A stretch of 34,618 bases of DNA from a virus (lineage: Duplodnaviria; Caudoviricetes), in the IMG/VR virus record IMGVR_UViG_3300005805_000251, positions 1-34,618 of that record. One strand, written 5' to 3'. Position numbers and translations under genes: made by a program. Of this stretch, positions 6,772 through 28,608 are shown one piece after another (position 1 is the stretch's first letter; every line of letters starts with the position of its first letter). The notes under the pieces were generated by a model that was not told the origin of the DNA, did no database searches, and saw only the letters and a list, made by a program, of their open reading frames with translations.

Positions 6772-7104
6772 TTGGCAACTACAGTATACGACGTAGAAGA
6801 CATTAAGCTACAAAATGGCTCAACGGTTCAATTAAAGCCACTATCAATTAAGCAGCTGCGTAAATTTATGGCAGCAATGAATAAGGCTTCCGAGGCCACA
6901 ACAGAAGATCAATCGCTAAGCGTACTTATTGATGCTTGTGCAATTGCATTAGAAACACAACTACCAGATTTGGTTAAGGATAGAGATAAGCTAGAGGAAG
7001 CTCTAGATGTTCCTACCATTAACAGAATTCTTGAAGTTTGTGGGGGAATCAGGCTTGATGACCCAAACCTAGTAGCGGCAGCGGTACTGGCTGGTCAGAA
7101 CTAG
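6772..7104 (+). CDS. Tail assembly chaperone (lambda gpG equivalent)
   Basis: 110 aa, TTG start with SD AAGGAGG, located between major tail and tape measure genes; LKPLSIKQLRKF motif. Confidence 0.82.
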   Translation: MATTVYDVEDIKLQNGSTVQLKPLSIKQLRKFMAAMNKASEATTEDQSLSVLIDACAIALETQLPDLVKDRDKLEEALDVPTINRILEVCGGIRLDDPNLVAAAVLAGQN

Positions 7105-7430
7105 ACTTAGCCGCTTTATTAGGTAGAGTTTTTCTTTTAGGCTCTTGGAAAACTTACCAAGATCTAGAAGAAAGCCTATCAATGCCAGAACTCTTGCAAA
7201 CAATAGAATCAATGCAAGAAAAAGAAAAAGAAAATAGAATATTCTTGGCTTCTCTACAAGGTGTAGATCTAAGAGAAAATCAAGAACAAGAGACTAAAAC
7301 CTTTGAAGATATTCGAAGAAAGGCTCTGGGAATAAATGCCAGTGGAGATGATGTAGTTTCTCTGCAAGGTGGTTTAGCTGCAGAGGCAGGATTCGGAATT
7401 GGAATGGGATTAGGGTATTCTAAGGAGTAA
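6772..7430 (+). CDS. Tail assembly chaperone, frameshifted long form (gpGT equivalent, about 219 aa)
   Basis: The -1 frame from 7062 reads ...PSSGSGTGWSELDLAALLGRVFLLGSWKTYQDLEESLSMPELL... and includes the annotated 7182..7430 ORF, whose ATG lacks an SD. Confidence 0.78.
7062..7068 (+). other. Programmed -1 ribosomal frameshift slippery site C CCA AAC
   Basis: X XXY YYZ heptamer in the correct phase. The -1 frame opens exactly here (TGA at 7059-7061) and stays open to 7430. Confidence 0.82.
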
Positions 7431-7439
7431 TATAGTTAA

Positions 7440-10400
7440 ATGCCTGATCAACAAATAGTAACTAGTATAGTTGCTAAATCTGATTTCTCAGATCTCCTTG
7501 CAGATTTGCAAAGAGTTAGCGGAAGCCTATCTAGATTACAACAGGAATTTGCTGGAGCCAATAGAGCTTTGGCTGGACAAATTTCTGCTACTAATGAAAT
7601 GTTTAAGCAGTCAATGCTTAAAACAGGACAATTTTCTTCACACTTCGTAAGCTTAACTTCAGATGTAGAAAAGTTTGGAAGAAATTTAGATAGTGGCAGA
7701 CTAAAGCTAAAAGATTATTTTAGAGTCTATCAGGACCATGTAAGAACGCATGGCGGCTTAGTAAGAGATCTTGCTAAGCAGCAGGTACAACTACAAAACG
7801 CAGTGCTACAGCCCCTAGGCAGAAATGCTCAGGGGCTAATGCAGTATAACGTACACATTCCAAGAGGATTAGATTTAACAAAAAATAAAACAGCTTTGCT
7901 AAAACAAGAATTAGCAATTATGAATAAAGTTATTCAAGACGGTGGAGTACAATTAATTAACTGGGGTAAAAATACACAATGGGCTGGTCGTCAGTTAACG
8001 GTAGGATTAACTTTACCACTTGTAGCATTCGGTAAAGCAGCATCTGATGCATTCAAAATAGCAGATCAAGAATTAACAAGATTAACAAAAGTTTATGGAG
8101 ATATAGCTGGAACATCTTCACAAGAATTAACAAGAATTAGAAAAGAAGTTGCAACAACAGCAAAAGAATTATCTTCTGCTATGGGAGTTAATTTTGGAGA
8201 AACTATAGCTCTTGCTGCCGACATTGCGGCAACAGGTAAAACGGGAAATGAATTACTAGCTTCTGTTTCTGAAACTACAAGACTTGCAGTCCTCGGTGAA
8301 GTTGATCGTCAAGAGGCTATGAAAGCAACTCTTGCAATACAATCAGCATTTAAACAGAATACAGATGAATTAGCACAATCAATTAACTTTTTAAACGCAG
8401 TTGAAAACCAAACATCAACCACTCTTAATGATTTAGTGGAAGCTATTCCAAAAGCTGGTCCTGTTATTAAAGGATTGGGTGGTAGCGTAGAAGATTTAGC
8501 CCTTTATCTTACTGCTATGCGAGAAGGCGGAATCAATGCATCAGAAGGTGCAAATGCACTAAAGTCTGCACTCGCATCTTTAATTAACCCAACAGATGTT
8601 GCAGTTGCAAAATTTCAAAGCTTTGGAATAGATCTTCTTGGCATTGTAAATAAAAATGCTGGCGATGTAACTGGAACCTTGATGTCTTTGCAAGGAGCAT
8701 TAGACAGGTTAAACCCGCTACAGAAACAACAAGCAATCGAACAGCTATTCGGCAAATTCCAATTTTCAAGACTTAACGCTTTGTTTGAAAACTTAGGTCG
8801 TCAAGGAAGTCAAACCCTTCAAGTTTTAGATCTAATGAAAGCAAGCGCATCAGAACTTGAATCAGTAGCTAGTCGAGAGTTAGCCGCAGTAACAGAGTCA
8901 GCATCTGGTAGATATAAAAGAGCGGTAGAAGGATTAAAAGCCGAGCTTGCAGGAGTTGGAGACGGGTTTTTAGATATAGGAACAAAACTAATAAATGTAT
9001 TAACAAAAATAATTGATTTCGGTCAAAAGCTACCAGACCCAATTAAAAAGCTAATGACATTCAGCGCAGTGTTTACAGCAATCATTGGCCCAGTAATTAT
9101 GCTCACTGGTGTTCTTGCAAACTTTTTTGGATATATTATAAAGGGTGTTGGACACTTCAAAGCATTATTTAAAGGTGCAGAAGGATTTAGATTACTAACC
9201 CCAGAAATAATGGCAGCAAAAAATGCTAGCTCAATGCTAGGAGATGAATTCTATACAGATGCATTGGCGGCAGATACTCTTAGAATTGCAATAAGAAAAC
9301 TTTCTGAAGATTTAATTTTGTTACAAAAGAATGCAATATCTGCAAAGACTGCTACATCTGGATTAGGTCAAACAATGACTACATCTGCTGGAGCTCCAAT
9401 AATGGTGATGGGTGGAGGAAGAGTAGCAGACCCAAACAATCCTTTAATAGGTCCACGATCTAGAGCAGCAGCACATTTAAATCCTAGAAACCCAAATGAC
9501 CCCGCAACCATATTTGGATTAACCTTGCAACCAATTCCAGTCAACAGAAGGATAGGTGCAAATCCTCAAATATTAATGGAGGATAGACTTGACGATATAG
9601 AGGGACTTACAACAATTGGAGGAGTCTCTACTGGTGTCGTAGCTGGAGAACATGCTAAATATCAAGCATTAATGGCAACACTTGGACTACAAAGTAAAAA
9701 AGAGATAGCAGACTTAAAGAAAACAATTAGAATGGGCGGATCTGTTTCTTCTGATTTTATGGCAACATTTGATGACATATTGCCAATTACTCAAGAGCTT
9801 ACGCAAAATGCTGCTAGACAGTCCGCTCAGATTGTCGCAGAATTACGTGCTGGAAAGATAAGCGTACAGCAAGCAAGAGATGCAATTATTGCAGTAAATG
9901 CTCAGTTGGAAAGAGATCTTGGAGTTAGAGTCTCTACATACGGAGCTGGCGTAGGAAGAACCATAGACCTCACAAAAGCACCTCTAATAGATCAGCCAGT
10001 AGTAGATGCCTCTGGAAAACCAAATACCCGTGGAATGTACCGCAAAGGAATTTTTGGAAAAATTATGGAGGCTGTTGGACGGGCAACAAAAACAAAAACA
10101 TTAGGCGGACCATATAGTATAGAAACCACTCGTAGATTAAATAAAGGTGGTGGAGTATTTTATAACAATGGAGATCAAGTCCCTGGTCCAAATGTAAACG
10201 CAGATGTAGTTCCTGCAATGCTTACCCCAGGAGAATTTGTAATTCGTAGAGATATAGCACAGCAAGATCCAGAAGGAATGAGAGCCCTAAATGAAGGAAA
10301 TGCAGTTGTAGTCCCTGTACAAAATAAAAATTTAGGTGGAGTAATTTTAAGAGCTTTACAAAAAAGAGCTAGGCAGATAGGCGCATCAAGAGCAAGATAT

Positions 10401-13400
10401 AAAGGTAGCGGAAGTGGGCCATCTACAAGAGATATAGCAGAGCCAGGATCTGGCTCTGTAAGATATGGTCAAATATATAAATCTGATTCGGCTAAGTGGG
10501 ACGATTTAACAGCTTATGGACTAAATGCTCCTAGCAGCTCTTCAGCCTTACTTCATGGAGCAGCAGCACCATTTAGAAAGAGAACTGCACATCTTCCAAA
10601 AGGACAATCAGAAACTGGAATTGCAACAAGATCTGAACTTAAAAAATTAGGAGTAGATGTATCTGGCTCTAAATATGAAGAGTTTATAGTTCTGCCAAAT
10701 AATTTTGTTATGTATACTGCAAGAAATTCTAAGGTGTGGAATAGCAAATTAAGAAATGGAACTGCTTTAGGAAGAGATTTCAAGGGACTAAAGCCAGGAG
10801 ATATGACATCTCTTGGCATAGCTTTAAAAGATGCAGGAGTTTCTCCCAAAGAAGCTGCGATTATTATGGCAAAAGCAGCAAAAGCATTCAATGCAGAAAT
10901 TAAAAGAAAGAAAAATGTAGATGCTGATTTTTTTGGAGACACTCTAGATAGAATTCAAAGAGAAACAGTAGCAAAACATTTTAAGATTTCTTTAAATCGT
11001 GGAGGAAGAATCCCTGGTTATAACCTTGGCGGAATGGTTCCAGGATATAATCGTGGAGGAAGAATCCCTGGTTATTTTAGAGGTGGCGGAATACGTGGCA
11101 TGGGAATGGGATCAATGTTGGCGTCCATGGCCCTTGGAAGCCTGGGCTACTCAGTAGGATCTAGATTTGGTGCAGCGGGCTCAATGATTGGATCTATGGC
11201 TGGCTCAATGCTACCAATGATGTTCTCAGACATGCGTATGGGTCGTATGGGTGTAGGACCAACACTAGAGCAAAGACTCGGAAGACCCTCAGCTATGGTA
11301 CCAAATCCAAATTTTGCATTTGGTTCTCCTATTTCTGCAACAAATCAAATGTATGCTTCATCTGCAATAGATCCAATTGCTGGAGGCAAAAAATCAATAT
11401 TTGCACAAGGTACACCATTTTTTGGTAGATATACAGACAGCGTTCAAAAAGCCGCAGGTTCATCAAGTAAATTTACGGCAACATTAGGAAAAATGGCTGC
11501 TGCATTATCAAGAACAAATATTGCCATAGGAACAGTTGTTACGGTAGCAGCATTAGCTAAAAAAGCATTTGACAAATATAATGATACTCAAAGAGTAAGC
11601 GCAGCAGAATTCGGATTCACAGCAGAGTCAGCGGCAAAGGCAGGAGTAAAATTTACTGACTATGGCGACAAGATAAAAGAAGCCGTTCAAGCTCAAAAAC
11701 TATTCATACAGCAAAATAAGCTAACTTATCAAAACTTAGCTTCTGCTGGCACTCCTTTTAAAATGTCAATAACAGAATATAAGGCGTTGAAAAAAGAAGT
11801 AAAAGAAACAATGCAGGCTCAAATAGAAATGTTAAATGCTGTTTCTAGATCTGATGTATCAAGAGTAGCAGTTCAATTAAAAGAACAGTTTATTGCAGCA
11901 GGAATGTCTGCAGAAGAAGCAACTAAAAAAATATTTACCTTGTTTCAAGTTTCTAATAAATCTCCACTGACATTTTCAGCTACGGGCACTTCAGCATTTA
12001 CAGATATTGTAGACGCACAAACAGCAGCAATAAGTGCTTTAAAAACATTTAATTATGCAAAGAGTTTTGAAAATGCAAAAGACGGAGCAACACAATTAAA
12101 CACAGCACTTAATGCAATAAATGCTGCTATTGAAGAAACTTATTCTAAAGCAGAAAAAGCTGCTAAGAAAAAGAATCAAATGTTTGATTCAACTAATGAA
12201 AAATATGAAGCGGAAAAGAAGGCCTTAGATCAAATTAATTTAAAGGTTAAAAATCAAGAAGCTCTTGGAGAAGACATATTCAATACATTAGCAGCTCAAG
12301 ATCCTTTAATTAGACAATTTGCTAACTCTCAAGATACAGTGGTAAGTCTATTCCAGAAAATGAGAATTCAAGCTAGAGGATTTACTGGAGACCTTGAAAA
12401 TTTAAATGCAACACAGACCAATAGATTATATGACTTTATAAATGCCACAGCTCAAGCAGTAGAAGATACTAATAAAAAAGGATTATTAAAGTCACAATAC
12501 GCTGAATATAATAGACTCTATGCATTACAAGAAAAAATGTCTAAAGCTGCCAAGGGACAAAGCGTAAAAGAACAAATAAGTACAAGAGATGCAATTCGTG
12601 CGATAGATGAGAAAATTAAGAAAATTAATGAAGAGGCTGATGCAAGAAGAAAAGCGTTAGAGGCTGCATATGATCAAGAAGATTACGACTTGCAATTACA
12701 ACAAGAGCAATTGGCTTATCAACAAGCAGTTGCTACAGGAGACATGACCTCTGCAGCAGAAGCTCAATTAAGAATACAAGATATTGTAAATCAAAGACAA
12801 AAAACTTTAGCTTTAGATCAAATAGAAGCAGATAGAGCATCTCAAGTTAAACCTCTTGAGGATAAAAAATCTGGAATTGAAAAGAAAGCTCAAGATCTAG
12901 CAGACGCAGCTGCATTAGCTGGAGAAAGTTTGCAATCTGTAAATGAAAAATTAGAAAAACAAAAAACAGCAATTGATAAAGTAAATTCTGCAATGACAGC
13001 CTATTTAGTAGGCCTTGAAACTGGCGCGAAGAATCTTAAAGGTTTGGCTGCAAATTTCTTGGCTGAAGCTAAAGCTGCTGGTGTAGCTACCCCAGAGTAC
13101 GTTTATACAGATGGTGGGAAGCCTATAAAATTTGATGATGCCTCAATTCTTCAACAGGCAAAAGCATTAAGTGATCAATTTGGTAAATTGCTTGATAAAA
13201 ATTTACAAGCTAATGGAGTCAATATTGAATCTGATGGAGACATATATATAAATGGTAAAAAGTTAGATCTATCAGATTCAAGACAGAACAAGGCAACTCC
13301 AGCTGGAACGACTTTTGGTGTCGATAGAAGAACAATAAAAGCAAAAACATTAGCGGAGGCCGCAAAAGAAGCTGAAACTGGAAAGAAAACTCAAACTTAT

Positions 13401-15014
13401 GTACCAGCGACTGGAGGACCTGGTTTTGATGTATTTGAATGGAACGGTAAGACATACGCAAGAGATAAGATGACTGGCGTAGTGTACCTGTTTAATCCAG
13501 ATACGAATACATTAGGCGCTAAGCAGAAATTAGCTAAAGGCGGAAAAGTAAAATATTTTGGTCCAGGCGGAAACGTAAGTGGCCCAGGAACATCAACTTC
13601 CGATTCAATTCCAGCAATGCTTTCAGATGGAGAATACGTAGTACGAGCTGCCGCCGTCGAGCATTATGGAGTAGACACCTTTGAAGCTATGAATGCTAAG
13701 AAACTAAAAGACGGTGGACCAATTTCTCCATATGATAGAAAAGGTAGGCCTACAGGAAGTCCTTATGGTTCTCGTTGGGGAGAACTTGTAAGAGACATTC
13801 ACGGTCTTGCCTATGGTAGAGATATTTGGGGCGGTACAGAAATTCCTGGATTAAAGTTTACTGGTAAGCACCCTCAGCATTCAGACTACTGGCATCAAAT
13901 GCAAGAACAGCCTAGAAAGCCTTTAAAGGGTAGTAGTCTAGGTATAGCAAAAGATGTGATGTCTCTATCAGGTTCCGTTCCATTTGAAGGACTTTTTGGT
14001 GGAGGAATTGGTTTTGGCGGAATGCTAACTATGAAAGACGGCGGAGAAGTAAAAAAACAAAACTGGTTCCAAAGATATGTTTCAAAATTAACAGAAACAC
14101 AAGATAAACTACCATCATTTGCTAAAGATCCATTTGGAATGGGACAACTATTAAGAAAATTTTCTGGACAAGGAAGAAGTGGAGATAATCCTGCTTTAGC
14201 TGCTGCTCTACTTCCTTTAAACTTTACTGGGCTAGGTCAAGGTGCTAAAGTTGGAAGTTTTGCCACTAAATTTAAAGATTTTGATATAAATTTTACTCCT
14301 GGAACAGTGCCTTCTTTAGATACAGTAATCGCATATCATAAAAATGCCCCAGTAAAATTAAAAGATTATTTTGATGCTATTAAATCTGGTGCTAAGTGGC
14401 CAAACATCACAGAGCATCCAGCCTATGAAGCAGGAGGATCTCTTAACGCCCTTAGAGCATATGTTGCTGGATCAAATAAGCCAGTTGGTGAATTATCATG
14501 GGATCCTTTTAGCGGAACAGTATTAAGCCTGGGTGTTGACAGTGCATTTAGAAGACAAGGTCTTGCTAGTAAGTTTTGGGAAATTGCTTCAGGATTAGGA
14601 CCGATATCTCACTCAGCAGTAAGATCTCTTGAGGGTGACGATTGGGCAAGAGCTGTAGGAGGCAACTTGCCAGACCTGCAACATTTAGTTCCTAAAATGG
14701 CAGGCGGAGGATATGTAAATCCTACATACTCTGCTAATATGAGTATTCCATCATTTGACGACGGAGTAAATAATATATATACTGATATGATAGCTAAGGT
14801 TCATAAAAACGAGGCAGTAATCCCAGCGGAGTTTAATCCATGGAACCCCTCAGCATCAAATCCACTGGGCGGAACCTATACGATAAACAACCAAGTATCA
14901 GTACAAGCAGCACCAGGAATGAATGAAGAAACACTAGCTAATTTAGTTGCACAAAAAATAGAAAATGCTAATAAGCAAACTATGGCTAAGATAGGAATAA
15001 ATAGGAGTAGATAA
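7440..15014 (+). CDS. Tape measure protein (2524 aa) with C-terminal accessory domains
   Basis: Longest ORF, directly after the chaperones. TP901-type core (GKNTQWAGRQL..., ASEGANALKS), Ala/Gly-rich helical stretches, hydrophobic segments, and GPGTSTSDSIPAMLSDGEYVVR motifs. Confidence 0.93.
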   Translation: MPDQQIVTSIVAKSDFSDLLADLQRVSGSLSRLQQEFAGANRALAGQISATNEMFKQSMLKTGQFSSHFVSLTSDVEKFGRNLDSGRLKLKDYFRVYQDHVRTHGGLVRDLAKQQVQLQNAVLQPLGRNAQGLMQYNVHIPRGLDLTKNKTALLKQELAIMNKVIQDGGVQLINWGKNTQWAGRQLTVGLTLPLVAFGKAASDAFKIADQELTRLTKVYGDIAGTSSQELTRIRKEVATTAKELSSAMGVNFGETIALAADIAATGKTGNELLASVSETTRLAVLGEVDRQEAMKATLAIQSAFKQNTDELAQSINFLNAVENQTSTTLNDLVEAIPKAGPVIKGLGGSVEDLALYLTAMREGGINASEGANALKSALASLINPTDVAVAKFQSFGIDLLGIVNKNAGDVTGTLMSLQGALDRLNPLQKQQAIEQLFGKFQFSRLNALFENLGRQGSQTLQVLDLMKASASELESVASRELAAVTESASGRYKRAVEGLKAELAGVGDGFLDIGTKLINVLTKIIDFGQKLPDPIKKLMTFSAVFTAIIGPVIMLTGVLANFFGYIIKGVGHFKALFKGAEGFRLLTPEIMAAKNASSMLGDEFYTDALAADTLRIAIRKLSEDLILLQKNAISAKTATSGLGQTMTTSAGAPIMVMGGGRVADPNNPLIGPRSRAAAHLNPRNPNDPATIFGLTLQPIPVNRRIGANPQILMEDRLDDIEGLTTIGGVSTGVVAGEHAKYQALMATLGLQSKKEIADLKKTIRMGGSVSSDFMATFDDILPITQELTQNAARQSAQIVAELRAGKISVQQARDAIIAVNAQLERDLGVRVSTYGAGVGRTIDLTKAPLIDQPVVDASGKPNTRGMYRKGIFGKIMEAVGRATKTKTLGGPYSIETTRRLNKGGGVFYNNGDQVPGPNVNADVVPAMLTPGEFVIRRDIAQQDPEGMRALNEGNAVVVPVQNKNLGGVILRALQKRARQIGASRARYKGSGSGPSTRDIAEPGSGSVRYGQIYKSDSAKWDDLTAYGLNAPSSSSALLHGAAAPFRKRTAHLPKGQSETGIATRSELKKLGVDVSGSKYEEFIVLPNNFVMYTARNSKVWNSKLRNGTALGRDFKGLKPGDMTSLGIALKDAGVSPKEAAIIMAKAAKAFNAEIKRKKNVDADFFGDTLDRIQRETVAKHFKISLNRGGRIPGYNLGGMVPGYNRGGRIPGYFRGGGIRGMGMGSMLASMALGSLGYSVGSRFGAAGSMIGSMAGSMLPMMFSDMRMGRMGVGPTLEQRLGRPSAMVPNPNFAFGSPISATNQMYASSAIDPIAGGKKSIFAQGTPFFGRYTDSVQKAAGSSSKFTATLGKMAAALSRTNIAIGTVVTVAALAKKAFDKYNDTQRVSAAEFGFTAESAAKAGVKFTDYGDKIKEAVQAQKLFIQQNKLTYQNLASAGTPFKMSITEYKALKKEVKETMQAQIEMLNAVSRSDVSRVAVQLKEQFIAAGMSAEEATKKIFTLFQVSNKSPLTFSATGTSAFTDIVDAQTAAISALKTFNYAKSFENAKDGATQLNTALNAINAAIEETYSKAEKAAKKKNQMFDSTNEKYEAEKKALDQINLKVKNQEALGEDIFNTLAAQDPLIRQFANSQDTVVSLFQKMRIQARGFTGDLENLNATQTNRLYDFINATAQAVEDTNKKGLLKSQYAEYNRLYALQEKMSKAAKGQSVKEQISTRDAIRAIDEKIKKINEEADARRKALEAAYDQEDYDLQLQQEQLAYQQAVATGDMTSAAEAQLRIQDIVNQRQKTLALDQIEADRASQVKPLEDKKSGIEKKAQDLADAAALAGESLQSVNEKLEKQKTAIDKVNSAMTAYLVGLETGAKNLKGLAANFLAEAKAAGVATPEYVYTDGGKPIKFDDASILQQAKALSDQFGKLLDKNLQANGVNIESDGDIYINGKKLDLSDSRQNKATPAGTTFGVDRRTIKAKTLAEAAKEAETGKKTQTYVPATGGPGFDVFEWNGKTYARDKMTGVVYLFNPDTNTLGAKQKLAKGGKVKYFGPGGNVSGPGTSTSDSIPAMLSDGEYVVRAAAVEHYGVDTFEAMNAKKLKDGGPISPYDRKGRPTGSPYGSRWGELVRDIHGLAYGRDIWGGTEIPGLKFTGKHPQHSDYWHQMQEQPRKPLKGSSLGIAKDVMSLSGSVPFEGLFGGGIGFGGMLTMKDGGEVKKQNWFQRYVSKLTETQDKLPSFAKDPFGMGQLLRKFSGQGRSGDNPALAAALLPLNFTGLGQGAKVGSFATKFKDFDINFTPGTVPSLDTVIAYHKNAPVKLKDYFDAIKSGAKWPNITEHPAYEAGGSLNALRAYVAGSNKPVGELSWDPFSGTVLSLGVDSAFRRQGLASKFWEIASGLGPISHSAVRSLEGDDWARAVGGNLPDLQHLVPKMAGGGYVNPTYSANMSIPSFDDGVNNIYTDMIAKVHKNEAVIPAEFNPWNPSASNPLGGTYTINNQVSVQAAPGMNEETLANLVAQKIENANKQTMAKIGINRSR
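10995..11099 (+). repeat. 27-bp (9-aa) tandem repeat within tape measure
   Basis: AATCGTGGAGGAAGAATCCCTGGTTAT is identical at 10995-11021 and 11049-11075, with diverged units between and after (NRGGRIPGY NLGGMVPGY NRGGRIPGY FRGGGIRG). Confidence 0.9.
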
Positions 15015-15451
15015 TGCCAGCCTTAATACTGCCAGTAGGATCACTTATTACAATGAATGGTAATAATCTATCAGAGCATAACCGTGCTCCAGTTACAGTA
15101 TCAATTAATAGAATTGAAAAAGTTCAAAGAATGAGTAACGGTACGCTACGCAAATTTAGCATAGCTGATAAAAAAATAATTAGTGCTTCTTGGTCAAATT
15201 TGCCATCAAGAAGTAATTACACTGTAGATGGTTTTTATGGAGCAAGGGATATTAAAGACTTTTATGAAAGCTCTGCTGGCAAAGGCACATTTGCTTTAAC
15301 GGTTAAATATGGCAGCACAGCAAATGCAGAAAATTTAATTGTTGTTTTTAATTCTTGTTCTTTTGAGTTAGTAAGAAGAAATGCTAAAGTATTACCAACA
15401 GATACTCCGCAAGAATTGTGGAATGTATCCCTTTCGTTTGAAGAGGTATAA
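15014..15451 (+). CDS. Putative distal tail (Dit-like) minor tail protein
   Basis: 145 aa, coupled to the tape measure stop. 'RMSNGTLR...K..ISASWSNL' and a C-terminal 'VSLSFEEV' resemble lambda gpM-like distal tail proteins. Confidence 0.6.
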   Translation: MPALILPVGSLITMNGNNLSEHNRAPVTVSINRIEKVQRMSNGTLRKFSIADKKIISASWSNLPSRSNYTVDGFYGARDIKDFYESSAGKGTFALTVKYGSTANAENLIVVFNSCSFELVRRNAKVLPTDTPQELWNVSLSFEEV

Positions 15452-27873: not shown

Positions 27874-27918
27874 TACCAAAGTAGCATAAGGTTGCTACAC
27901 ATATTGATAGAAAGAATT

Positions 27919-28608
27919 ATGAGTAGCGAAACTATTGCACCAGGTATAGTTAAATTTAATATAGATAAAAATTTAGCTACAAAAATACTAGAAGATCTTA
28001 AGTCATGCGACAATGATTATTGGGTAAAAGCTTCTACTATAGGAGAAGCGCTTGAAAACCATAGTCACAAATATTTAATTAGAAACTCAGATATTTTAAA
28101 TTTCTTAGAAAAATTTCCAGATTTAAATAGACAATTAGATTTTGAAATGAACAATATTTTGTTTAAATATAAATTACAATATATGGATACTGAAGTTCAA
28201 ATGAATTCTAAAGAAATTTTTTCTGCATTAAGATATTCTCCTGGTGGATTTTATAAAATGCATTGCGATACTTCTCCATACATGTACAGAACAGTATCAT
28301 GTTTGGTTTATTTAAATCCAGATGAATATGAAGGTGGGGAAACATTTTTTAAATATTTTGATTTAAACTATAAGCCAAAAGATGCTAGCATCTTAATTTT
28401 CCCAAGCAATTATATCTATGCACATTCTGCAATGCCAGTATCATCTGGAATTAAATATGTATTGACAAACTGGTATAGTGATTTATTACCTATGAATGAA
28501 AAAGGAATTGGTTTTAAAAACATATCAATATTAAATAAAGAAAATATAGTCGAAATCGACGGAAAAAAATATTTTAAGTTTCCTGTAGGAGGACACATTG
28601 TCAAATGA
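27919..28608 (+). CDS. 2OG-Fe(II) dioxygenase, prolyl 4-hydroxylase-like (start revised to 27919)
   Basis: RYSPGGFYKMHCD (HxD at 28261-28269), RTVSCLVYLN..EYEGGETFF, and ILIFPS...HSAMPVSSGIKY (distal His plus 2OG-binding Lys). Confidence 0.9.
   Translation: MSSETIAPGIVKFNIDKNLATKILEDLKSCDNDYWVKASTIGEALENHSHKYLIRNSDILNFLEKFPDLNRQLDFEMNNILFKYKLQYMDTEVQMNSKEIFSALRYSPGGFYKMHCDTSPYMYRTVSCLVYLNPDEYEGGETFFKYFDLNYKPKDASILIFPSNYIYAHSAMPVSSGIKYVLTNWYSDLLPMNEKGIGFKNISILNKENIVEIDGKKYFKFPVGGHIVK

What the first reader, a model, noticed from the sequence alone, without database searches (positions are those of the whole stretch)
14046..14700. GNAT acetyltransferase-like domain embedded in the tape measure protein behind a pre-toxin-like linker
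Seen: at about 14451-14663 the protein reads LRAYVAGSNKPVGELSWDPFSGTVLSLGVDSAFRRQGLASKFWEIASGLGPISHSAVRSLEGDDWARAVGG. Established: 'V-x-x-x-F-R-R-Q-G-L-A' matches GNAT motif A (R/Q-x-x-G-x-G/A, acetyl-CoA binding), preceded by the expected beta strands. Tape measure proteins are ejected into the host envelope at infection. About 70 aa upstream, 'GDNPALAAALLPLNFTGLGQGAKVG' resembles the hydrophobic/Gly-Lys linkers that precede toxin domains in polymorphic toxins. Inference: the phage may use its tape measure to inject a pre-made acetyltransferase (host takeover or anti-defence) before any gene expression. This is my best candidate for an undescribed system here.
Basis: partly seen in the sequence, partly recalled or inferred. 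Interest (0 to 1): 0.82.

Follow-up and report, generated by a model that had tools for sequence, protein, structure and literature searches.

The report
Swappable acetyltransferase cassette in phage tail
The tail-length "ruler" protein of an uncultured lake phage contains a domain with the sequence motif and predicted fold of an acetyltransferase, inside a 222-residue module that related phages gain, lose and swap at a short repeated peptide, so the tail likely carries a ready-made protein-modifying enzyme that would be cut free and pushed into the host cell at infection.

Summary
Confirmed and extended. Residues 2273-2419 of the 2,524-aa tape measure protein (TMP) are a GNAT domain: model pLDDT 85, structure matches almost all GNAT-fold, motif A and family residues intact. 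It belongs to a phage family distantly related to the polyvalent-protein GNAT Alice gp113. It lies in a 222-aa cassette fenced by a bulky-x-x-G-G-x-V/I peptide. One relative shares the cassette at 90% from fence to fence on a divergent backbone, and one contig lacks exactly these 222 codons. The fence resembles the mapped cut site of T5 pb2. All 17 leader-bearing cassettes carry a GNAT, ADP-ribosyltransferase-like or kinase-like payload (the last two labels are motif readings); none of 23 wall-enzyme cassettes has one. Activity, cutting, delivery, target and host are untested. This scan already noted GNAT-in-TMP and the fence motif on other genomes; I found no paper describing either. New variant of a known kind.

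The parts
7440..15014 (+). Tape measure protein gene, 2,524 aa
   Evidence: PF10145 E 5e-29; phrog_10030; nearest cultured TMPs are Streptomyces Stanwilliamsviridae at ~33%
13557..13703 (+). Conserved TMP 'hook' module (aa 2040-2088) that opens the C-terminal cargo slot
   Evidence: matches Douge gp16 (E 7e-14) and JBD30 TMP; family profile hits JBD30 1020-1067 at E 4e-16, the region called a predicted hook in PMC11445458
13704..13724 (+). Joint motif at aa 2089 (LKDGGPI)
   Evidence: the 98% block with P0001 ends at aa 2093; contig pieces end at 13719 and 13724
13704..14030 (+). 109-aa cassette of unknown function, present in 6 of 182 TMPs
   Evidence: cluster 8; no Pfam or NCBIfam hit
14031..14051 (+). 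Joint motif at aa 2198 (MKDGGEV), left fence of the GNAT cassette
   Evidence: the P0004 block starts at aa 2201; loose ends at 14045 in X5, X6, X8, X13 and piece starts at 14040 in X12, X13
14046..14255 (+).
   Evidence: found in 7 of 182 TMPs in front of GNAT (2), ART-like (4) or kinase-like (1) payloads; net charge +5, max 19-aa hydropathy 0.99; no Pfam family
14256..14696 (+). GNAT-fold payload (aa 2273-2419; core 2336-2411)
   Evidence: its left edge is a second crossover point
14535..14567 (+). GNAT motif A (V2366 to A2376, R-R-Q-G-L-A), predicted acetyl-CoA pyrophosphate loop
   Evidence: R2372 94%, G2374 99%, A2376 90% conserved in 98 rows; aligns to RimI-type and Nat structures
14610..14672 (+). 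Family signature H2391-S-x-x-R2395-x-x-x-G2399-x-x-W2402-A ... G-G-x-L-P2411
   Evidence: H 99%, R 96%, G 100%, W 96%, P 99% in the family; all kept in the window
14697..14717 (+). Joint motif at aa 2420 (MAGGGYV), right fence
   Evidence: the P0004 block ends at aa 2425; piece ends and starts at 14690-14713
14697..15014 (+). C-terminal 105-aa piece, inferred tail-tip plug (like T5 pb2C, 92 aa)
   Evidence: position and size; role inferred from PMC10038345
10326..10991 (+). Second (middle) cargo slot, aa 963-1184, fenced by the same motif; unassigned domain
   Evidence: weak Atlas leads to HNH-type toxin nucleases (score 0.86); no Pfam or PDB support

Best explanation
The tape measure protein contains a 222-residue exchangeable cassette (a ~70-residue leader plus a domain with GNAT motif A and a predicted GNAT fold) between two copies of a short Gly-Gly peptide, and it likely works as pre-packed cargo: threaded into the tail, probably cut free at those peptides, ejected near the front of the tail contents, and likely carried by the leader into the host cytoplasm, where it would acetylate a host protein to favour the phage. 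Shown: the sequence, the family, the fences and the swapping. Predicted: the fold. Inferred, with my odds for each step: catalytically active 0.75; inside the virion tail 0.9; cut at the joints 0.55; reaches the cytoplasm with the leader's help 0.5; target is a host protein (takeover or counter-defence) 0.55. The reason to place its action in a cytoplasm is established knowledge: acetyl-CoA is a cytoplasmic metabolite.
For: Fold and site. Against L014 the core has 13 synonymous and 3 non-synonymous codon changes. Cassette: P0004 shares aa 2201-2425 at 90%, while its N-terminus is 70% and its middle 26% identical. P0001 is 98% identical up to aa 2093, then carries a different cassette, of the CHAP cluster. 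An X18 contig lacks a net 666 nt = 222 codons, joint to joint. The 7 GNAT carriers need 6 changes on a 56-row tree, at least 3 forced by strong branches. Joints: 989 motifs in 182 TMPs against a mean of 109 in 30 local shuffles; 85 of 316 block ends lie within 10 aa of a joint against 9.3% at random. T5 pb2 is cut after R1127 (PMC10038345), which is position 1|2 of R-A-E-G-G-M-M. Leader: 17 of 17 leader cassettes carry GNAT (7), ART-like (8) or kinase-like (2) payloads; 0 of 23 wall-enzyme cassettes have a leader. Leaders and payloads recombine: GNAT occurs behind leaders A, B and C. Precedent: P23-45 gp96; TM4 motif 3 counts toward tail length.
Against: No step after the sequence was measured. 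T5 is cut after Arg; the window's joints have Leu, Tyr, Lys or Met there, and Arg is 15% of family motifs. My first motif pattern missed the T5 site because its seventh residue is Met. A profile of 20 family modules scores the T5 site at only 6.6 bits against 5.6 for the best of 500 shuffles. The GNAT's own family-conserved end (R2404-A-V-G-G-N-L) fits the motif, so a cutter reading only the motif would clip the enzyme. 231 of 316 block ends are not near a joint. The leader has no transmembrane-strength stretch (hydropathy at most 1.34 in 8 leaders). The leader/payload table rests on queries I chose by eye, on related phages, and on ART and kinase labels read from motifs: the best library support is Arr-ms E 1.6e-4, under its cut-off, and PDB profile searches gave nothing relevant. 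2 cytoplasm-type cassettes have no recognised leader. The tree is a quick tree, and the label is not more clustered than shuffles (95 of 500 as low).
Confidence: 0.45

Rival explanations
1. The GNAT is delivered but stays attached. The Gly-Gly peptides are only flexible hinges and recombination points, and the enzyme acts while tethered to the TMP channel at the membrane.
For: DNA breakpoints pile up at the joints (7 of 27 listed loose ends within 15 nt against 6.9% expected), which explains their position without cutting. The P23-45 polymerase is proposed to work at the TMP pore. The first joint residue varies, and a motif copy lies inside the GNAT.
Against: The joints are conserved as protein while their DNA differs, so they give only short DNA homology. 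The one mapped TMP cut falls on such a motif. Bare 9-aa tandem copies of the motif (aa 1185-1212) do not separate any domains.
Confidence: 0.22
2. The GNAT acts in the cell that builds the virion, for example acetylating the fresh N-termini of TMP fragments, other virion proteins or a host factor late in infection. It is cut out or inert afterwards.
For: Acetyl-CoA is at hand in the producer cell. The profile's PDB hits include RimI-type and Nat N-terminal acetyltransferases. Solo family members of about 110 aa exist.
Against: An assembly function should be conserved, yet 175 of 182 TMPs lack the domain. It alternates in one slot, behind the same leaders, with ART-like and kinase-like domains. 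A nascent TMP is expected to be held unfolded by tail chaperones (general knowledge).
Confidence: 0.13
3. The domain is not a working transferase. It is a stripped-down GNAT that binds CoA or a host defence protein as a decoy, or a near-neutral passenger tolerated as extra tail length.
For: The family is short and scores below Pfam cut-offs in the window. Structural Z-scores are middling (best 9.3). The cassette is dispensable. No catalytic residue is proven.
Against: Motif A and a His/Arg/Gly/Trp signature are 94-100% conserved across 98 rows and kept in the window. Changes in the core are mostly synonymous. The cassette has spread among divergent backbones.
Confidence: 0.12
4. The cassette is a weapon against other cells or phages (polymorphic-toxin style) rather than a takeover tool: it kills or poisons non-permissive or already infected cells.
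For: Conserved leader plus variable enzyme is the polymorphic-toxin layout. GNAT toxins AtaT and TacT3 appear among fold matches, not above other GNATs.
Against: No immunity gene: the next ORF overlaps the stop codon and is the conserved tail gene. No known pre-toxin domain. A phage gains little from killing a cell it cannot use.
Confidence: 0.08

Closest known systems
Polyvalent proteins and their GNAT domains (Iyer et al. 2017, PMC5512222; passages and the GNAT section read)
   Same: Virion-associated polypeptides that combine GNAT, ART, kinase, peptidase and wall-lytic domains, proposed to be injected with the DNA. The window's GNAT profile hits Alice gp113, the paper's example of its second GNAT family (E 6.6e-7). 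Long relatives combine this GNAT with Arr-like ART, NUDIX, SprT and 2H domains.
   Different: The carrier here is the tape measure protein; 'tape' occurs 0 times in that paper's main text (figures, supplement and FTP tables not seen). No MuF, ArdC or ParB Pfam domain is detected in the window's TMP. Fenced cassettes and leaders were not seen in the passages read.
Thermus phage P23-45 gp96, TMP-fused virion RNA polymerase (PMC10770324; abstract and passages)
   Same: A cytoplasm-acting enzyme built into a TMP, present in some relatives and absent in others.
   Different: N-terminal, one large enzyme that transcribes phage genes, proposed to stay at the pore. Here it is a small C-terminal swappable modifier with a leader and fences.
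T5 pb2 maturation to pb2* + pb2C (PMC10038345; passages) and lambda gpH to gpH* + gpHC (PMC12617516; passages)
   Same: T5 is cut at position 1|2 of an R-A-x-G-G-x-hydrophobic string, releasing a wall-lytic C-terminal piece. Lambda has the motif at 733 and 778; a cut at 733 would give 12.5 + 79.8 kDa against the reported ~14 and ~78.
   Different: One cut in those phages against 10 strict motif matches in the window. The lambda site is unmapped and the paper places it nearer 690-710. The protease is unknown. The T5 cargo is a wall enzyme.
Mycobacteriophage TMP motifs 1-3, TM4 motif 3 (PMC1796659; passages)
   Same: Dispensable, mosaic enzyme inserts in actinophage TMPs that add to tail length (114 aa, about 20 nm). 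Relatives here carry CHAP, lysozyme, LysM and OmpA cassettes.
   Different: Those act on peptidoglycan; a GNAT needs acetyl-CoA.
phiKMV-like phage GNAT Rac (PMC7552054; abstract only)
   Same: A phage GNAT that alters host transcription; a model for what a delivered GNAT could do.
   Different: A separate gene product, not part of a TMP; no sequence relationship was tested or seen.

Membership tests
GNAT superfamily | Motif A (R/Q-x-x-G-x-G/A after the central strand) | tested here: met
   R2372-Q-G2374-L-A2376, conserved 90-99% in the family; aligns with RimI-type 9mto, E 1e-4
GNAT superfamily | GNAT fold | tested here: met
   model pLDDT 84.8; Foldseek PDB best E 1.9e-4; VIA best Z 9.3, rmsd 3.4, 96 aligned (ESCO1); BFVD best E 1e-6
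GNAT superfamily | Acetyl transfer from acyl-CoA to an amine | not testable with these tools
   needs an assay
Polyvalent-protein GNAT family 2 (Alice gp113) | Sequence relationship to Alice gp113 | tested here: inconclusive
   profile hit E 6.6e-7 over 65 positions in a small ORF set; could reflect shared motif A; gp113 lacks the H-S..W-A signature as printed
Polyvalent proteins | Several unrelated catalytic domains in one polypeptide | tested here: inconclusive
   met in relatives (e.g. P0004 lysozyme + OmpA + GNAT); in the window only the GNAT is assigned, two other cassettes are not
Polyvalent proteins | Encoded among late virion genes | tested here: met
   the TMP lies in the head-tail operon
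Polyvalent proteins | Typical carrier domains (MuF, ArdC-N, MPTase, ParB) | tested here: not met
   Pfam finds only PF10145 in the whole protein at E<=0.05; Pfam may lack some of these models
Polyvalent proteins | Injected with the DNA | not testable with these tools
   inferred from TMP biology
Polymorphic toxins | Variable enzyme domain behind a conserved pre-toxin segment | tested here: met
   leader A precedes GNAT, ART-like or kinase-like domains
Polymorphic toxins | Known pre-toxin domain such as PT-TG (family name recalled) | tested here: not met
   no Pfam hit up to E 5 for 5 type-A, 1 type-B and 1 type-C leaders; no NCBIfam hit for the 2 scanned
Polymorphic toxins | Adjacent immunity gene | tested here: not met
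   the next ORF (15014-15451) abuts the stop and is a conserved tail gene
T5-type TMP maturation site | x-A/N/K-x-G-G-x-hydrophobic string at the cut | tested here: met
   T5 R1127|A-E-G-G-M-M; window joints at aa 2089, 2198, 2420
T5-type TMP maturation site | Arg before the cut | tested here: not met
   the window's fences start with Leu or Met; Arg in 15% of family motifs
T5-type TMP maturation site | Cleavage in the mature particle | not testable with these tools
   needs virion mass spectrometry

The most novel reading that the evidence does not exclude
These lake siphophages use the tape measure protein as a two-tier, programmable injection polyprotein. Multiplied T5-type cut sites release each cassette, and an undescribed class of basic amphipathic leaders sorts the pieces: leaderless cassettes stay in the envelope and open the wall, while leader-tagged ones (GNAT, ADP-ribosyltransferase, kinase) cross the membrane and modify the host before any phage gene is read. 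The tail tube would then be a general effector-delivery route in non-contractile phages.
Probability: 0.3. Interest if true: 0.88.

Novelty: new variant of a known kind. Interest (0 to 1): 0.67.

Why it matters
TMP inserts in print are mostly wall enzymes, plus one RNA polymerase. A family in which a protein-modifying enzyme is swapped in and out at a fixed peptide would extend pre-expression host manipulation to the tail of non-contractile phages, the group in which NAD/ADP-ribose system genes are rarer (16% against 60% of myoviruses, PMC9503650 passage). It makes an old question testable: where and how TMPs are cut (the lambda site is still unmapped, PMC12617516), since the motif predicts exact sites. 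The leader/payload split predicts a membrane-crossing tag that can be tested with reporters in cultured Streptomyces relatives.

Tried and rejected
Single-sequence folding gave a poor model (pLDDT 53.9) and was not used. A word-indexed search for solo homologues of 79-254 aa found none; the full HMMER search then found many, so that blank meant nothing. PHROGs: no family for the domain, and 1 of 98 family members hit an acetyltransferase PHROG. Leader as PT-TG or any library domain: no hit. Leader as a transmembrane helix: rejected. A leader search of viral contigs gave 3 loci; L182 is the same TMP as P0021, and L183 and L184 are chance matches in 104-aa frames, dropped. Profile searches of the ART-like, kinase-like and middle-slot alignments against PDB gave nothing relevant. 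An internal translation start for the cassette: the only ribosome-site-like match was out of frame. Host: 4 prokaryote-bin loci name Bacteroidia (2), Rhodobacteraceae and Aquiluna; inconsistent, not used. No RNA holder listed; no evidence either way. No complex prediction was run, since no partner is proposed. Rows dropped before counts: 229 candidates became 182 after removing proteins under 1,700 aa and near-duplicates; 88 of 182 had no pattern-recognised hook, so that count was not used. Hook-region loose ends were left out, and the tool listed only part of the loose ends (10 and 58 not shown). Literature: 10 searches listed no paper on a GNAT inside a TMP or on the joint motif; I saw most hits as listings only. 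The phrase 'tape measure' may miss the hyphenated spelling. A paper on freshwater actinophage genomes that I recall mentioning ADP-ribosylating domains was not held, so whether it places them in TMPs is open.
Full report
Setting. The window is a 34.6-kb fragment of a phage genome (about 32% complete), 36% G+C, held by lake-water runs. It runs from the prohead protease through head, tail and replication genes. The nearest cultured relatives are Streptomyces phages of Stanwilliamsviridae: major capsid protein 62-63% identical, TMP N-terminus about 33%, similar gene order. An actinobacterial host is likely but unproven (one search is inconsistent).

Observation. One X1 contig covers 13000-15300 without a difference, though it may be the source.

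The domain is a GNAT. Pfam alone is weak (E 0.01). HMMER over 1.84 billion representatives gave 253 hits at E<=0.001: many solo proteins of about 85-135 aa, and giant proteins with several copies. Of 30 scanned, 24 hit GNAT Pfams, and several also carry Arr-like ART, NUDIX, SprT or 2H domains. A 98-row alignment gave a model of pLDDT 84.8. Its matches are GNAT-fold proteins with few exceptions: Foldseek best E 1.9e-4, VIA best Z 9.3 to ESCO1, BFVD best E 1e-6 to lake-phage proteins. These fix the fold, not the substrate. The window keeps motif A and the family signature H2391, R2395, G2399, W2402, P2411. Against L014 the core shows 13 synonymous and 3 non-synonymous changes. The profile hits Tonenili gp97 twice and Alice gp113 at E 6.6e-7, the example that Iyer et al. 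give for a RimI-like GNAT family of polyvalent proteins.

It is a cassette with fences. A peptide bulky-[ANKRS]-x-G-G-x-[VILM] recurs: 10 times in the window against 0.66 in local shuffles, and 989 times in 182 non-redundant TMPs against 109. The pattern was drawn from the window and T5, so the window count is partly circular. Copies at aa 2089, 2198 and 2420 fence a 109-aa cassette and the 222-aa GNAT cassette. A motif-blind block search shows P0004 sharing aa 2201-2425 at 90%, although its N-terminus is 70% and its middle 26% identical. P0001 is 98% identical up to aa 2093, carries a CHAP-cluster cassette instead, and rejoins at aa 2273. Over 49 long TMPs, 85 of 316 block ends lie within 10 aa of a joint against 9.3% at random; the majority do not. 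At DNA level, an X18 contig skips 703 nt with 37 other letters between, a net 222 codons, fusing the left fence to the C-terminal piece. Contigs from four runs leave the window sequence at 14045, the last base of the fence's Gly-Gly. The GNAT is in 7 of 182 TMPs. Six of these were first found by GNAT-based searches, so the share is inflated; 4 of the 120 proteins listed by the N-terminal search carry it. On a quick tree of 56 N-termini the 7 carriers need 6 changes, at least 3 forced.

What the fence may be. T5 pb2 is cut after R1127, mapped by mass spectrometry (PMC10038345). The T5 record shows this as R|A-E-G-G-M-M, position 1|2 of the same kind of string. I saw this before reading the scan's earlier notes, which say the same for other genomes; they are not independent support. 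Lambda gpH has the motif at 733 and 778; its cut site is unmapped. The module after the motif at aa 2040 is the JBD30 'hook'. Against cutting: the first residue varies (Arg only 15%), profile support for homology with the T5 site is thin (6.6 bits against 5.6), and the GNAT's own conserved end fits the motif. I put cutting at 0.55.

It is the end of a 70-aa leader (aa 2203-2272), found in 7 of 182 TMPs. It is basic (+5), amphipathic, without a transmembrane-strength stretch, and matches no library family. It precedes the GNAT in 2 TMPs, ART-like domains in 4 and a kinase-like domain in 1. Three other leader types exist, and the GNAT occurs behind three types. The leader/payload border is a second crossover point (aa 2272-2274). 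Among 52 C-terminal cassettes counted in 24 TMPs, all 17 with a leader carry GNAT (7), ART-like (8) or kinase-like (2) payloads; none of the 23 with wall-related domains (CHAP, lysozyme, M15-like, LysM, OmpA) has one; 2 ART-like cassettes have no recognised leader, and 10 are unassigned. CHAP, lysozyme, LysM and OmpA are Pfam-confirmed in representatives; the M15, ART and kinase labels are my motif readings, with only Arr-ms at E 1.6e-4 in support. The queries were chosen by eye and the phages are kin, so the nominal Fisher value overstates the case. The pattern still suggests that leaders mark cargo bound for the cytoplasm.

Mechanism. Most likely the cassette is translated within the TMP and threaded into the tail, as TM4 motif 3 is (PMC1796659). 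It is probably cut at the fences and leaves the tail right behind the C-terminal plug, since TMP C-termini sit at the tip. The leader would help it cross the membrane, and the refolded GNAT would acetylate a host protein; Rac shows what a phage GNAT can do. Whole chain 0.45. Rivals: tethered delivery without cutting 0.22; action in the producer cell 0.13; non-catalytic or passenger 0.12; toxin against other cells 0.08.

Comparison and novelty. It works like a polyvalent-protein effector carried by a TMP. It is a GNAT by motif and fold. It is not a polymorphic toxin by membership (no immunity gene, no known pre-toxin domain), and not a typical polyvalent protein by carrier. Known in print: TMP-borne wall enzymes, one TMP-fused RNA polymerase, GNATs in polyvalent proteins. 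Ten literature searches listed no description of a GNAT in a TMP, of the multiplied joint motif or of the leaders; 'tape' has 0 hits in the main texts of PMC5512222 and PMC9503650. Their figures and supplements were not seen and could bear on this. The scan itself has noted GNAT-in-TMP on other genomes (5 notes) and the motif (8 notes); no look-alike of this locus was on record, and the few lines shown do not mention leaders. Verdict: real, new variant of a known kind, interest 0.67.

Noticed in passing
window 10326-10991 (TMP aa 963-1184): Middle cargo slot with a highly variable domain; 114 TMPs fall in one loose cluster. Atlas leads point to HNH-type toxin nucleases (Tox-GHH2, Tox-SHH, AHH) at 0.86 or less, lead level only; no Pfam or PDB support.
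   Followed up: partly
window 10992-11075: Tandem 9-aa copies of the joint motif with no cargo between them; such runs are common in relatives.
   Followed up: no
window 13704-14030: 109-aa leaderless cassette of unknown function, 58-84% identical over the queried part in five other TMPs.
   Followed up: partly
window 14649-14672 (aa 2404-2411): The GNAT family's own conserved end fits the joint motif; unexplained if the motif is a cut site. A looser look-alike lies at aa 2329, just before the GNAT core.
   Followed up: partly
L001:5189-6058; L064:13574-14473; P0004 aa 1289-1581: Middle-slot cassettes in relatives with an R-S-E ADP-ribosyltransferase-like pattern (15 TMPs) or a kinase-like pattern (5 TMPs); labels by motif reading, best Pfam E 0.073. 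They were not part of the leader count.
   Followed up: partly
P0125 (3,303 aa), P0127, P0129, P0142: Giant proteins with up to 10 matched copies of this GNAT family, some with Arr-like ART, NUDIX or SprT domains; polyvalent-like, context unknown.
   Followed up: partly
L180:4431-6686 (Mycobacterium phage Tonenili BI081_gp097): A cultured phage protein with two copies of this GNAT family; a ready source for biochemistry.
   Followed up: partly
L179:8058-14324 (Streptomyces phage Muntaha TMP aa 1622-2004): Motif-fenced segment holding hook plus what look like wall-lytic domains (by eye, not scanned); a cultured test case for cutting.
   Followed up: no
window 6772-7430: Two small ORFs before the TMP at the position of the frameshifted tail assembly chaperones of Yaboi; slippery site not checked.
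   Followed up: no
window 27892-28608: 2OG-Fe(II) oxygenase gene (PF13640 E 1e-14) between the tail and replication genes.
   Followed up: no
L186, L187, L188, L189: Related TMP genes sit in genome bins labelled Bacteroidia, Rhodobacteraceae and Aquiluna; probably phage contigs binned with cells.
   Followed up: no
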